Positions 2,296-63,785 of a stretch of 64,000 nucleotides of DNA are shown one piece after another. Origin of the DNA: Escherichia phage 172-1. Both the position numbers and the translations under genes were made by a program. The DNA lies in sequence record NC_028903.1; one strand, written 5' to 3'. The notes under the pieces were generated by a model, which was not told where the DNA came from, did not search any database, and saw only the letters and a list, made by a program, of their open reading frames with translations. Within the stretch, counting starts at the first letter, position 1. Each line of letters starts with the position of its first letter.

Positions 2296-2532
2296 ATGAA
2301 CATTAGGCATCAATTCAATAAAGAGCACGCCGCCGCTTTGGCGGCTCTCAATCTTAACGGCAGTCTTGACGCAGCATTAGAGGCATTGAAAGAAAGACTC
2401 ATGACAGAGATAGTTCAAACTGAACCTCATGAGAATAAGAAACGCGAAGATTGTTATCAAAAGTATAAAATGGTGGGTAGCTTAAAAGAGGTCATAAAAG
2501 CTGCTATCAATAGTGCAGGAGATGTTTCATAA
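2296..2532 (+). CDS. hypothetical small protein
   Basis: 78-aa ORF between portal and scaffold genes, same strand, tight spacing. Confidence 0.4.
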   Translation: MNIRHQFNKEHAAALAALNLNGSLDAALEALKERLMTEIVQTEPHENKKREDCYQKYKMVGSLKEVIKAAINSAGDVS

Positions 2533-3617
2533 TGCCACAAGATAATTATATTGACCCGAACGATTTTAAATCTTTCCTCCAACTGGATGACCTGAAAGGC
2601 TCTTTTAAAGAAGAGCTTGGTCGATTAGAATCTGAACAAGAACCAGAAGTGGACATTGACGACGAGTTCCCGGAAGATACCGGTGACAACTTCGACTTTG
2701 ATACCGACCTTCTCGGTGAAAGCGATGAGCTTAAGTTCGAAGATGAAGATGGTTGGGAAGATCATGATGAGGAAGGCGAAGTCGAAGAAGATGGGGATGA
2801 CTCTGACGAAGGTGATGAAAACACTGAAGCAGAAGAGGAAGACTCAAGCGATGCAGGATATGAAGATGATTCTGCTGACGGTGATGGTGAAGTCTTTGAT
2901 GTAGACTACGAAACCGTTATCACCCTTCCTGATGGACGTGAGATGACTATTGAAGAACTCTCCAATGGCTATCTTACTGGTGCTGACATGACTGAACGAG
3001 AATCAACTCTTCAGCGTCACATGGAAGCATTTGAGGAACGTGTAGTAGGTTTGAAGGATGTATTAGAATTAGCGTCTTTAGAAGCAGACCGAGTAATTGA
3101 AGATTACAACGGATTTGATTGGGACAAGCTTGCAGTAGAAGATCCTCAAGCATATGTTGAAAACAAACGTTTCCTAGAGAAGTACACAGCTCGTCGTAAC
3201 CAGCTTGAACAGGCTCAGATGCGTGTTAAGCAGGAAGCAGCAGCTAAAGAACAGGAAGCTTTCCAAGCCAAAAGTGTTGAGTGCGTTAATATTCTGAAAC
3301 GTGAGATTCCAAATTGGGATGAAAACTTATATCAAAACTTAATGCAATATGCAATTGACTTAGGTGCTACTGAAGAAGAAGTATTGAAGGAAAACCGTCC
3401 GTCTATTTTCCTAGCTCTCCATAAAGCATACCAATTTGATAAAGGTAAGCAGCAGGTGATGGCTAAGATTAAACGTCCCGGTGCTCCACGCAAGGTTGTG
3501 AAGTCTGATGCTGCAAAGTCTCGTACTTCCAATAAGCCAGACAACGCTAAGGTTGCCAAGGCATTCGCAGAGGGTCGCGTTAGTCACGAAGACGCATTCA
3601 AATTCCTCGTAGATTAA
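2532..3617 (+). CDS. scaffolding protein (putative)
   Basis: 361 aa, extremely Asp/Glu-rich N-terminal half, helical C-terminus, located between portal and capsid. Confidence 0.55.
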   Translation: MPQDNYIDPNDFKSFLQLDDLKGSFKEELGRLESEQEPEVDIDDEFPEDTGDNFDFDTDLLGESDELKFEDEDGWEDHDEEGEVEEDGDDSDEGDENTEAEEEDSSDAGYEDDSADGDGEVFDVDYETVITLPDGREMTIEELSNGYLTGADMTERESTLQRHMEAFEERVVGLKDVLELASLEADRVIEDYNGFDWDKLAVEDPQAYVENKRFLEKYTARRNQLEQAQMRVKQEAAAKEQEAFQAKSVECVNILKREIPNWDENLYQNLMQYAIDLGATEEEVLKENRPSIFLALHKAYQFDKGKQQVMAKIKRPGAPRKVVKSDAAKSRTSNKPDNAKVAKAFAEGRVSHEDAFKFLVD

Positions 3618-60571: not shown

Positions 60572-60862
60572 ACATCCTCCAATTAAACATTTATATAAGA
60601 CTTGCTTAGATAAAGATTCAATAAAATAGGGGGAGGGGACGAATCCTCCCTTATCCTATTAATTAAGTTTGCATGTAAGATCTAACAATCGGTTGCCTTT
60701 GTAGGAATAAGCGTTATGCCAATCCAGCACTAAACTCCCGCCCCCTTAGTGGGCTGGGTTATTAAAGGGTAACGCCCTTATGGGCTAGTTACATGAATGT
60801 TAGTTTGATAGGAGATCTGAAGTCCTATCTCAAAGGACTCTCGTAAGAATCCTTCACGATAG

Positions 60863-62135: not shown

Positions 62136-62212
62136 TGGCGCACCGTGGAGGATTCTAACCTCCAACCAATTTCTTAGAAGGAAACTGCTCTATACAATTG
62201 AGCTAACGGCGC
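62136..62212 (-). tRNA. tRNA-Arg (anticodon UCU)
   Basis: hand-folded cloverleaf: acceptor GCGCCGU/ACGGUGC, D stem GCUC/GAGC, anticodon stem GUUUC/GAAAU with loop CUUCUAA, T stem GGAGG/CCUCC with loop UUAGAAU, discriminator G and encoded CCA. Confidence 0.65.
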
Positions 62213-62220
62213 AGAATTAT

Positions 62221-62529
62221 TTATAAGGAGAAAGACTTCTTACAATCCTTCTCTTCAAAAGTGTAGTAGCCTGTTGTATCAGGGAAGTAGGCATACTTTG
62301 TTTCTTTGCCATCAATAACCATGACACGATTACCAGAAGTTGTTTCTACAAACAGAAGCCCATCTCTTACCATACCATGAGATTCTTTGATACCAGTTAA
62401 GCTATGCTCTTTAAGAGTGCATTGCTGAACACTCTGATACTTAACTCCAATCTCTGCACTATTAACAGAGATGATACCAATGGTTGTCATTAGTAGTAAG
62501 GTTGAGATGATAAAATGCTTTTGTTTCAC
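62221..62529 (-). CDS. secreted (periplasmic) protein
   Basis: N-terminal signal peptide MKQKHFIISTLLLMTTIGIISVNSA. Confidence 0.45.
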   Translation of the reverse strand: MKQKHFIISTLLLMTTIGIISVNSAEIGVKYQSVQQCTLKEHSLTGIKESHGMVRDGLLFVETTSGNRVMVIDGKETKYAYFPDTTGYYTFEEKDCKKSFSL

Positions 62530-63740: not shown

Positions 63741-63785
63741 TAAAACAACAAAGGCCACCCGATTGGGCAGCCTTTTATTTATTTC
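63741..63785. terminator. bidirectional hairpin terminator
   Basis: ggccaccc-gatt-gggcagcc flanked by A-run and T-run. Confidence 0.4.

What the first reader, a model, noticed from the sequence alone, without database searches (positions are those of the whole stretch)
62136..62212. tRNA-Arg(UCU) with atypical D and T loops
The hand-folded cloverleaf is canonical in stems and anticodon loop (U33, UCU, A37) but the D loop (AAUUGUAUA) lacks the usual GG and the T loop reads UUAGAAU (A instead of C56), suggesting a co-varying D-loop/T-loop tertiary contact. It sits between a lipoprotein gene and a secreted-protein gene in the early region. AGA/AGG-decoding tRNAs are a common phage supplement to a rare host codon.
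Basis: seen in the sequence. Interest (0 to 1): 0.45.

Follow-up and report, generated by a model that had tools for sequence, protein, structure and literature searches.

The report
Phage arginine tRNA with swapped elbow pair
This is a genuine arginine tRNA gene of a phiEco32-like E. coli phage (a known feature of that group), and the nearly universal G19:C56 pair at the corner of its L-shape is replaced by a matching U:A pair, a compensated swap that recurs mainly in viral arginine tRNAs.

Summary
Confirmed. ARAGORN and the Rfam tRNA model (62.5 bits, threshold 29) both call a 77-nt tRNA-Arg(UCU) with encoded CCA at 62136-62212. It lies on the minus strand. The phage is a Kuravirus (phiEco32/NJ01-like). 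That group is already known to carry one tRNA-Arg(TCT) matching its AGA-rich codon usage: AGA is 20.6% of Arg codons here, against a published 3.6% in E. coli K-12.

The odd loops are real.
- The closest kuravirus alleles have C19:G56; more distant ones and host argU have G19:C56.
- In IMG/VR, all 19 distinct argU-like tRNA-Arg(UCU) cores with neither G19 nor C56 form Watson-Crick pairs.
- The Levitt pair co-varies too (A15:U48).
- In the sampled loci the swaps are enriched in tRNA-Arg.
- The same double-variant pattern found 3 hits in 185,579 bacterial and archaeal genomes, against 39 viral loci.

An identical allele occurs in one metagenome contig, so this is not a sequencing error.

Side findings:
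- The kuravirus tRNA locus holds at least 8 very different tRNA-Arg(UCU) bodies between near-identical flanks, some next to HNH endonucleases.
- This allele carries G3·U70, the main alanine identity pair.

Why the elbow changes is unresolved. Overall: an ordinary gene with a modestly novel structural variant.

The parts
62136..62212 (-). tRNA-Arg(UCU) gene, 77 nt, with the 3' CCA encoded (62138-62136)
   Evidence: ARAGORN. Rfam RF00005, 62.5 bits. Cloverleaf MFE. On 22 homologues, 99.6% of cells pair and 16 pairs show changes on both sides.
62191..62199 (-). D loop AAUUGUAUA = A14 A15 U16 U17 G18 U19 A20 U20a A21. U19 is at 62194, G18 at 62195, and A20 (the ArgRS determinant) at 62193.
   Evidence: Sequence. 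Register fixed by alignment to K-12 argU, whose D loop is AGUUGGAUA. A20 and G18 are invariant in the alignment.
62152..62158 (-). T loop UUAGAAU = U54 U55 A56 G57 A58 A59 U60. A56 is at 62156 and pairs with U19.
   Evidence: Sequence. 19:56 counts on 22 homologues: GC 15, CG 5, UA 1, one mismatch. All 19 distinct IMG/VR double variants are Watson-Crick.
62164..62164 (-). U48, Levitt-pair partner of A15 (62198). It is A15:U48 here and G15:C48 in host argU.
   Evidence: 15:48 = AU 19, GC 3, never unpaired.
62176..62178 (-). Anticodon U34 C35 U36, in the loop CUUCUAA, which is identical to host argU
62142..62142 (-). U70, which pairs with G3 (62210) as a G·U wobble, the major AlaRS determinant. 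Host argU has G3:C70.
   Evidence: Sequence. Alignment to argU. 3:70 = GU in 9 of 22 homologues. Identity sets from PMC9976931.
61817..62116 (-). Downstream ORF, 99 aa, with a lipobox (LTGC). Its start codon is 19 nt after the tRNA 3' end, with GAGAGG as the ribosome-binding site.
   Evidence: phrog_4281, function unknown.
62221..62529 (-). Upstream ORF, 102 aa, with a signal-peptide-like N-terminus. Its stop codon is 8 nt before the tRNA 5' end.
   Evidence: phrog_23590, function unknown.

Best explanation
This is a functional phage tRNA-Arg(UCU).

How it most likely works:
- Expression (inferred): it is transcribed with the minus-strand early genes as part of a polycistronic RNA. Gaps of 8 nt and 19 nt separate it from the neighbouring ORFs. 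Host RNase P and 3' processing enzymes would cut it out. CCA is encoded, so it need not be added.
- Charging (determinants shown, charging inferred): host ArgRS would charge it through A20, C35, U36 and G73.
- Decoding (codon bias shown): it reads AGA, and AGG by wobble. The phage uses these codons about 5-6 times more than E. coli does.

Its unusual loops are not damage. The two tertiary pairs that hold the L-shape together have been exchanged for equally shaped Watson-Crick pairs: G19:C56 to U19:A56 at the elbow, and G15:C48 to A15:U48. G18, U54, U55, G57 and A58 are kept. The flat stacking face that RNase P, the ribosome and other elbow readers use should therefore be preserved (inferred).

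The swap is one instance of a recurrent, always compensated change. It is found mainly in viral tRNA-Arg genes.

The cause is most likely near-neutral compensated drift. tRNA-Arg may tolerate this unusually well, and A/T mutation pressure helps in AT-rich phages. An adaptive cause is not excluded.
For: Gene call:
- Searches identify it as a tRNA well above threshold.

Constraint on structure (alignment of 22 argU-like alleles):
- 99.6% of cells form standard pairs.
- 16 of 24 pairs show a change on both sides.
- 0 of 500 shuffles reach the observed values, and slid controls collapse to 26-44% paired.
- Between this allele and its nearest relatives (88-91% identity), two of the differences are double compensatory changes, at 19:56 and 50:64.

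Identity and anticodon loop:
-.

Codon usage:
-, and PMC9965538.

Elbow covariation:
- Kuravirus alleles carry U:A, C:G and G:C.
- An unselected IMG/VR sample gave 80 G:C, 3 A:U, 1 U:A and no one-sided change among 84 distinct cores (Fisher p=5e-7).
- A full IMG/VR scan for non-G19 with non-C56 gave 39 loci and 19 distinct cores, all Watson-Crick.

Isotype bias:
- Non-canonical elbows occur in 6 of 94 distinct tRNA-Arg against 0 of 170 distinct tRNAs of other isotypes in the same IMG/VR loci (p=0.0018).
- Same-contig controls: L134 has Arg(UCU) A:U and Arg(CCU) U:A next to a canonical tRNA-Lys. L066 has Arg(UCU) U:A next to canonical tRNA-Ser and tRNA-Val.

A/T pressure:
- Loci with swapped elbows have a median GC of 34.7%, against 41.7% for canonical ones (p=2e-7).

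Independent occurrence of this exact allele:
-.

Precedent:
- U19:A56 is the natural elbow pair of tRNA-Pyl (PMC5758916).
Against: - No expression, processing or charging data exist for this allele. All functional steps are inferred.
- Neutral drift does not obviously explain the enrichment in tRNA-Arg.
- Neutral drift also does not explain why one 42%-GC phage genus holds three different pairs, including C:G, which A/T pressure cannot produce.
- G3·U70 could allow some charging by AlaRS.
- The statistics count distinct sequences, not independent evolutionary events. Many IMG/VR hits come from one sample (3300045988).
- The isotype comparison uses loci that were selected for holding a tRNA-Arg(UCU).
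Confidence: 0.85

Rival explanations
1. The altered elbow, and the many different tRNA bodies at this locus, are counter-defence. A host or competitor nuclease depletes or cleaves tRNA-Arg, or recognises phage tRNA, by reading the elbow or body. Variant alleles escape it while keeping the anticodon.
For: - The kuravirus locus holds at least 8 very different tRNA-Arg(UCU) bodies, although the flanks are 90-98% identical.
- Three different Watson-Crick pairs occur at 19:56 within one genus.
- Elbow swaps are enriched in tRNA-Arg and in viruses: 39 IMG/VR loci against 3 hits in 185,579 species genomes.
Against: - No tRNA-Arg-elbow-directed nuclease turned up in my literature searches.
- The anticodon loop, the usual target of such nucleases, is identical to host argU.
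- The whole kuravirus early region is mosaic, so allele turnover need not be selected.
- The BASEL screen found kuraviruses sensitive only to Fun/Z among the defence systems tested (PMC11990801).
- The number of canonical matches in the genome collection was not measured.
Confidence: 0.12
2. Homing-endonuclease pressure drives the changes. HNH endonucleases that cut within the tRNA gene favour alleles with changed DNA sequence in the D arm or T arm. Because the RNA must still fold, an escape change at position 19 is followed by a compensating change at 56.
For: - HNH or homing-endonuclease ORFs abut the tRNA in O18-011 and Bas91, with a degraded remnant in CHD5UKE1. The HNH calls are confirmed by PHROGs.
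- In Ptacy1479, an HNH gene plus an intact tRNA-Arg of another family lie between two remnants. One is a 27-nt 5' remnant identical to the window allele. The other is a 3' remnant identical to the MN03 allele.
- Window and NJ01 differ by a tRNA-sized cassette whose borders lie within about 10 nt of the gene.
- T4 SegB is a homing endonuclease that acts in a tRNA gene cluster, and SegB homologues co-localise with tRNA genes (PMC2330249; PMC13096335).
Against: - The cleavage sites of these HNH enzymes are unknown.
- The window has no HNH gene beside its tRNA.
- Elbow swaps also occur in many large phages for which I did not check endonuclease neighbours.
- This idea does not explain the enrichment in tRNA-Arg.
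Confidence: 0.08
3. The tRNA has dual or altered identity. Through G3·U70 it is charged partly with alanine, so some AGA codons are read as Ala.
For: - G3·U70 is present here, whereas host argU has G3:C70.
- It is kept in 9 of 22 related alleles, including phiEco32 and Vibrio phage D69.
- G3·U70 is the major AlaRS determinant and confers alanine acceptance when moved into other tRNAs (PMC9976931).
- The discriminator base varies (G, U or A) among close alleles.
Against: - The other bacterial Ala determinants are absent. This tRNA has G73, C2:G71, C4:G69 and A20, where the Ala set has A73, G2:C71, G4:C69 and G20.
- The full ArgRS set is present.
- AGA is 1.1% of phage codons, so systematic Arg-to-Ala replacement would damage the phage's own proteins (inference).
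- Bas88 and other alleles have A3:U70 or G3:C70, so the wobble pair is not required.
Confidence: 0.05
4. It is a decaying or non-functional tRNA gene, and its odd loops are damage.
For: - It scores about 10 bits below host argU on the Rfam model.
- A related E. coli chromosomal tRNA-Arg (L010) has an uncompensated U19 with C56.
Against: - All four stems are intact and both tertiary pairs are compensated.
- The identity elements and anticodon loop are intact, and CCA is encoded.
- The identical allele occurs in a second genome whose flanks have diverged to 90-93% identity.
- Every kuravirus locus fetched here holds an intact tRNA-Arg(UCU) at this site, and each listed entry of the group table shown in PMC9965538 has one tRNA.
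Confidence: 0.03

Closest known systems
The single tRNA-Arg(TCT) gene of phiEco32-like phages (Kuravirus, Gordonclarkvirinae), e.g. phiEco32, YF01, IMEP8 and NJ01
   Same: - Same genome position, in the early region next to the same lipoprotein-like ORF.
- Same anticodon and same orientation.
- Same proposed role as an AGA supplement (PMC9965538).
   Different: - This exact sequence is absent from 50,697 GenBank phage records. The best full-length match is 90.9%.
- It carries U19:A56, where the nearest alleles carry C19:G56 and the others G19:C56.
- Several kuraviruses carry unrelated tRNA-Arg(UCU) bodies at the same site.
E. coli argU, tRNA-Arg(UCU)
   Same: - Same length (77 nt), with encoded CCA.
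- Same D-loop length and the same anticodon loop, CUUCUAA.
- Same A20, C35, U36 and G73.
   Different: - G19:C56 is replaced by U19:A56.
- G15:C48 is replaced by A15:U48.
- G3:C70 is replaced by G3·U70.
- The anticodon stem differs, and several stem pairs carry compensated changes.
The tRNA-Pyl elbow (U19:A56)
   Same: [quoted passage not shown]
   Different: tRNA-Pyl is an archaeal and bacterial amber-decoding tRNA with a compact, otherwise atypical core. In that study, changing the pair to G19:C56 gave the best suppressor among the single-site (M-series) designs. The window tRNA is otherwise a canonical class I elongator tRNA.
Anti-defence phage tRNAs, and tRNA loci linked to homing endonucleases (T5-like tRNA-Tyr against retron-Eco7; the T6 tRNA-Tyr/SegB locus against Septu; T4 SegB)
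   Same: A phage tRNA that duplicates a host isoacceptor. In relatives, homing-endonuclease genes are associated with the tRNA gene (PMC13096335; PMC2330249).
   Different: No defence system that targets tRNA-Arg(UCU) has been linked to these phages. The anticodon loop is unchanged from the host. The endonucleases here are HNH, not GIY-YIG SegB. This window has no endonuclease beside the tRNA.

Membership tests
Canonical class I elongator tRNA (Rfam RF00005) | Cloverleaf with 7/4/5/5-bp stems, a 7-nt anticodon loop with U33, and a 7-nt T loop | tested here: met
   All 21 secondary pairs are standard in this sequence.
Canonical class I elongator tRNA (Rfam RF00005) | Conserved core nucleotides U8, A14, G18, G19, A21, G53, U54, U55, C56, A58 and C61 (list in PMC10424219) | tested here: not met
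   Nine of the eleven are present. G19 is U and C56 is A. The two changes are complementary, so the pair is kept although the bases are not.
Canonical class I elongator tRNA (Rfam RF00005) | Score at or above the curated gathering threshold | tested here: met
   62.5 bits against a threshold of 29.
Substrate of E. coli ArgRS (bacterial arginine identity set) | A20, C35, U/G36 and A/G73 | tested here: met
   All are present. The set is from PMC9976931. Actual charging cannot be tested here.
Substrate of E. coli AlaRS (bacterial alanine identity set) | G3·U70 wobble pair (the major determinant) | tested here: met
   G3 (62210) pairs with U70 (62142).
Substrate of E. coli AlaRS (bacterial alanine identity set) | A73, G2:C71, G4:C69 and G20 (minor determinants) | tested here: not met
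   The tRNA has G73, C2:G71, C4:G69 and A20.
Codon-supplementing phage tRNA | The cognate codon is used much more by the phage than by the host | tested here: met
   AGA is 20.6% of Arg codons in window ORFs, against 3.6% in K-12 (PMC9965538).
Codon-supplementing phage tRNA | Expressed and aminoacylated during infection | not testable with these tools
   No expression data. The promoter and terminator scans were at chance level.
Anti-defence phage tRNA (escape from a tRNA-targeting nuclease) | Sequence differs from the host isoacceptor at the nuclease's recognition or cleavage site, classically the anticodon loop | tested here: not met
   The anticodon loop is identical to argU. Differences lie in the elbow, stems and variable loop. 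No nuclease is known to read these in tRNA-Arg.
Anti-defence phage tRNA (escape from a tRNA-targeting nuclease) | A host defence that cleaves the matching host tRNA, and rescue by the phage tRNA | not testable with these tools
   Needs infection experiments.

The most novel reading that the evidence does not exclude
The elbow pair of phage tRNA-Arg is under diversifying selection rather than drift. Something specific to tRNA-Arg reads the 19:56 corner next to A20. It could be a defence or competitor nuclease, a homing endonuclease acting on the gene, or ArgRS itself. Under this reading, phages repeatedly change the pair while keeping it Watson-Crick. The hyper-polymorphic kuravirus tRNA locus, with U:A, C:G and G:C alleles and HNH cassettes, would be a live example of that arms race.
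Probability: 0.15. Interest if true: 0.75.

Novelty: new variant of a known kind. Interest (0 to 1): 0.4.

Why it matters
G19:C56 is among the most conserved features of tRNA. It is the surface that RNase P, the ribosome (L1 stalk, L5, A-site finger) and other factors stack on. Natural coliphage tRNAs carrying U:A, C:G or A:U at this position must still work with the E. coli machinery. They therefore provide ready-made isosteric variants for asking whether the identity of the pair matters or only its shape. They may also be useful for tRNA engineering.

Two observations are not explained by simple codon supplementation: the enrichment of swaps in tRNA-Arg, and the extreme allele diversity at one kuravirus locus. 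Both could point to an unrecognised selective agent acting on phage tRNA-Arg. If not, the finding remains a tidy textbook case of tertiary-pair covariation in an otherwise ordinary, already annotated phage tRNA.

Tried and rejected
- Sequencing error or chance fold. Rejected: an identical allele occurs in MAVE01000056.1, and the covariation is strong.
- Pseudogene. Rejected (see rival explanations).
- A dedicated promoter or terminator for the tRNA. The sigma-70-like and terminator-like scans gave no more hits than shuffled sequence (7 against 9.2, and 2 against 2.1). The one promoter-like hit ends 4 nt before the tRNA and would start transcription inside it, so I do not rely on it.
- Late-gene bias in AGA use. 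Not seen.
- Searching E. coli genomes for the allele. This found only prophage or plasmid argU-like tRNAs at 75-82% identity. argU itself shares no 11-mer with the query, so I fetched it by accession.
- A census of kuraviruses through IMG/VR using the neighbouring lipoprotein. This gave only 4 loci, so the allele census rests on 20 kuravirus loci (19 fetched plus the window) and is incomplete.
- Literature searches for 'phiEco32' with 'tRNA-Arg', and for a phage-tRNA-related defence that cleaves tRNA-Arg. Both found nothing relevant. Pavlova et al. 2012 (PMC3275717) is not held.
- The first viral-contig scan failed because the machine was busy and was repeated. Two literature calls failed on syntax.
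- A/T mutation pressure as the sole cause. It is supported for the A19:U56 variants in AT-rich phages. It does not account for C19:G56 in kuraviruses at 42% GC.

Full report
**What is there**

ARAGORN finds exactly one tRNA in the 64-kb window: tRNA-Arg, anticodon tct, at 62136-62212 on the minus strand. The Rfam tRNA covariance model matches 62139-62212 (-) over its full length at 62.5 bits (gathering score 29, E=3.6e-11). Host argU scores 72.1, phiEco32's tRNA 67.6, IMEP8's 59.2 and NJ01's 57.0. The minimum-energy fold is the cloverleaf.

The RNA reads GCGCCGU-UA-GCUC-AAUUGUAUA-GAGC-A-GUUUC-CUUCUAA-GAAAU-UGGUU-GGAGG-UUAGAAU-CCUCC-ACGGUGC-G-CCA, with CCA encoded. Two corrections apply. The gene is on the minus strand. 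The D loop keeps G18 and lacks only G19.

- Downstream is a 99-aa ORF with an LTGC lipobox, starting 19 nt after the tRNA.
- Upstream is a 102-aa ORF with a signal-like N-terminus, ending 8 nt before the tRNA.

PHROGs lists both as function unknown.

**Which phage, and what was already known**

The flanks match Kuravirus genomes (phiEco32-like podoviruses, Gordonclarkvirinae). There are 94 matching records, mostly at 90-95% identity, and NJ01 is best at 94%. Many of these records annotate a tRNA-Arg at this spot.

The literature already states that these phages carry a single tRNA with a TCT anticodon. It reports that AGA makes up about 20.2% of Arg codons in phage YF01 against 3.6% in E. coli K-12. 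It also places the early genes at the right end of the genome (PMC9965538).

My own count on greedily chosen ORFs of the window agrees. AGA is 10.9 and AGG 4.25 per 1000 codons, and AGA is 20.6% of Arg codons. There is no difference between the strand carrying the large structural genes and the other strand.

The gene as such, and the codon-supplement reading, are therefore known.

**Charging and decoding**

The bacterial arginine identity set is A20, C35, U/G36 and A/G73 (PMC9976931), and all are present. The anticodon loop CUUCUAA is identical to K-12 argU. Processing, modification and charging by host enzymes are inferred from this. They are not shown.

**The elbow**

Aligned to argU (D loop AGUUGGAUA, T loop UUCGAAU), the window tRNA has U19 and A56 where argU has G19 and C56. 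It has A15 and U48 where argU has G15 and C48. Both tertiary pairs are thus changed on both sides to another Watson-Crick pair.

The comparison among relatives is decisive:
- The nearest alleles (IMEP8, Bas89, SDYTW1, 4E8 and one IMG/VR kuravirus, at 88-91% identity) have C19 and G56.
- Bas88, EcoN5, MN03, phiEco32, Vibrio phage D69 and the unrelated kuravirus allele families have G19:C56.

On 22 argU-like sequences, a structure string that included the tertiary pairs gave:
- 99.6% of cells paired;
- 16 of 24 pairs with changes on both sides;
- 0 of 500 shuffles reaching the observed values;
- a collapse to 26-44% paired when the partners are slid.

At 19:56 the counts were GC 15, CG 5, UA 1 and one mismatch. 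The mismatch is an E. coli chromosomal tRNA-Arg (L010) with U19 and C56. It is a plausible intermediate on the path from G:C to U:A.

**How general is the swap**

A pattern scan of IMG/VR with N at positions 19 and 56 was stopped at 120 loci. It gave 84 distinct cores: 80 G:C, 3 A:U, 1 U:A and no one-sided change (Fisher p=5e-7).

A complete scan for non-G19 together with non-C56 gave 39 loci and 19 distinct cores. All are Watson-Crick: 15 A:U, 2 C:G and 2 U:A. The same pattern hit only 3 contigs among 185,579 species-representative bacterial and archaeal genomes, all A19:U56. I could not measure how many canonical matches that collection holds, so the contrast is suggestive only.

I ran ARAGORN on all fetched loci. 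In the IMG/VR loci, non-canonical elbows occur in 6 of 94 distinct tRNA-Arg against 0 of 170 distinct tRNAs of other isotypes (p=0.0018).

Controls within single contigs point the same way:
- L134 has Arg(UCU) A:U and Arg(CCU) U:A beside a canonical tRNA-Lys.
- L066 has Arg(UCU) U:A beside canonical tRNA-Ser and tRNA-Val.
- In the 39 swap loci, other Arg isoacceptors (ACG, CCU) are often swapped as well. Only about 4 of roughly 95 non-Arg tRNAs fail the canonical test. Three of those (Thr, Gly, Pro) are A19:U56.

Swap loci are AT-richer than canonical ones (median 34.7% against 41.7% GC, p=2e-7). A/T pressure therefore explains part of the pattern. It does not explain C:G, or the three different pairs within one 42%-GC genus.

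These tests count distinct sequences, not independent events. Many hits also come from a single sample.

**Is the allele real and new**

No GenBank phage record holds it. The best full-length match is 90.9%. An identical 77-nt gene lies in metagenome contig MAVE01000056.1, behind a different upstream gene and with flanks at 90-93% identity. Its first 27 nt are a remnant in Ptacy1479.

U19:A56 is not unprecedented as a pair. It is the natural elbow pair of tRNA-Pyl (PMC5758916). G18, G19 and C56 are listed among the most conserved tRNA nucleotides, and the exposed 19:56 face is what many partners stack on (PMC10424219; PMC4810234; PMC7912444). I found no paper describing elbow swaps in phage tRNA-Arg. 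My literature access is partial.

**The locus is unusually variable**

Among the kuravirus loci I fetched there are at least eight tRNA-Arg(UCU) body types at the same site. Window and NJ01 share 97.7% identity over 993 nt upstream and 97.4% downstream, yet their tRNAs are unalignable. The borders of the swap lie within about 10 nt of the gene. The NJ01 type occurs in only about 8 records, and the window's allele family in about 7.

Homing endonucleases are nearby in some relatives:
- In O18-011 and Bas91 an HNH or homing-endonuclease ORF abuts a distinct allele type (CGGGGCG...).
- In Ptacy1479 an HNH gene plus an intact tRNA of yet another type lie between a window-type 5' remnant and an MN03-type 3' remnant.

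This recalls T4 SegB and the wider link between homing endonucleases and tRNA genes (PMC2330249; PMC13096335). It offers a mechanism for allele replacement, and possibly for selection on the DNA sequence of the gene.

**G3·U70**

The acceptor stem has a G3·U70 wobble pair where argU has G3:C70. This pair is the major AlaRS determinant. It is present in 9 of 22 related alleles, including phiEco32 and Vibrio phage D69. The minor Ala determinants are absent and the Arg set is complete. I therefore rate alanine charging as unlikely to matter, but it has not been tested.

**Verdict**

The feature is a functional-looking, already known type of phage tRNA. It carries a compensated, isosteric replacement of the elbow pair, and of the Levitt pair as well. 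They also add two observations that codon supplementation alone does not explain: the enrichment of swaps in viral tRNA-Arg, and a hyper-polymorphic kuravirus tRNA locus associated with HNH endonucleases.

The mechanism I commit to is AGA/AGG decoding after charging by host ArgRS, with the elbow swap being structurally neutral (confidence about 0.85 for function). The cause of the swap remains open. Near-neutral compensated drift is the most likely, and counter-defence or homing-endonuclease escape are the interesting alternatives.

Noticed in passing
window 62136-62212, compared with L001 (NJ01), L003, L004-L008, L030-L036: The kuravirus tRNA-Arg(UCU) site holds at least 8 very different tRNA bodies with the same anticodon, while the flanks stay 90-98% identical. 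Window and NJ01 differ by a tRNA-sized cassette whose borders lie within about 10 nt of the gene. The same allele also sits behind different upstream genes (window against L026).
   Followed up: partly
L003 (Ptacy1479) 2501-3023; L031 (O18-011) 1644-2126; L036 (Bas91) 1551-2036: HNH or homing-endonuclease genes abut the tRNA in some kuraviruses. In Ptacy1479, an HNH gene plus an intact tRNA-Arg of another type lie between two remnants: a 27-nt 5' remnant identical to the window allele and a 3' remnant identical to the MN03 allele. This looks like a cassette inserted into a resident tRNA gene.
   Followed up: partly
window 62210 (G3) and 62142 (U70): The acceptor stem has a G3·U70 wobble pair, the major alanine identity determinant. 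Host argU has G3:C70. The same pair is present in 9 of 22 related phage alleles, including phiEco32 and Vibrio phage D69. The discriminator base varies (G, U or A) among close alleles.
   Followed up: partly
L134 3777-4810; L160, L181 and L182; L183; L169: In several large IMG/VR phage contigs, more than one arginine isoacceptor (UCU, CCU, ACG) has a swapped 19:56 pair, sometimes of a different kind within one contig. Neighbouring tRNAs of other isotypes are canonical, which suggests an arginine-specific cause.
   Followed up: partly
L010 (E. coli MFDS1022581 chromosome) 301-377: A chromosomal argU-like tRNA-Arg(UCU), directly followed by a tRNA-Gly and found in three E. coli genomes, has U19 with C56. 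This is an uncompensated elbow mismatch and a possible intermediate on the way to U19:A56. I did not check whether it lies in a prophage.
   Followed up: no
window 63750-63775 (-) and 60631-60650 (-): Two terminator-like hairpins on the minus strand bracket a block of about 3 kb of small ORFs that contains the tRNA. The number of such hits is no higher than in shuffled sequence, so this is only a hint of a transcription unit.
   Followed up: no
L058, L082 and L117 (IMG/VR): ARAGORN calls tRNAs with a CUA (amber) anticodon, labelled 'tRNA-Pyl', with short D loops lacking GG in three large viral contigs. These may be suppressor tRNAs.
   Followed up: no
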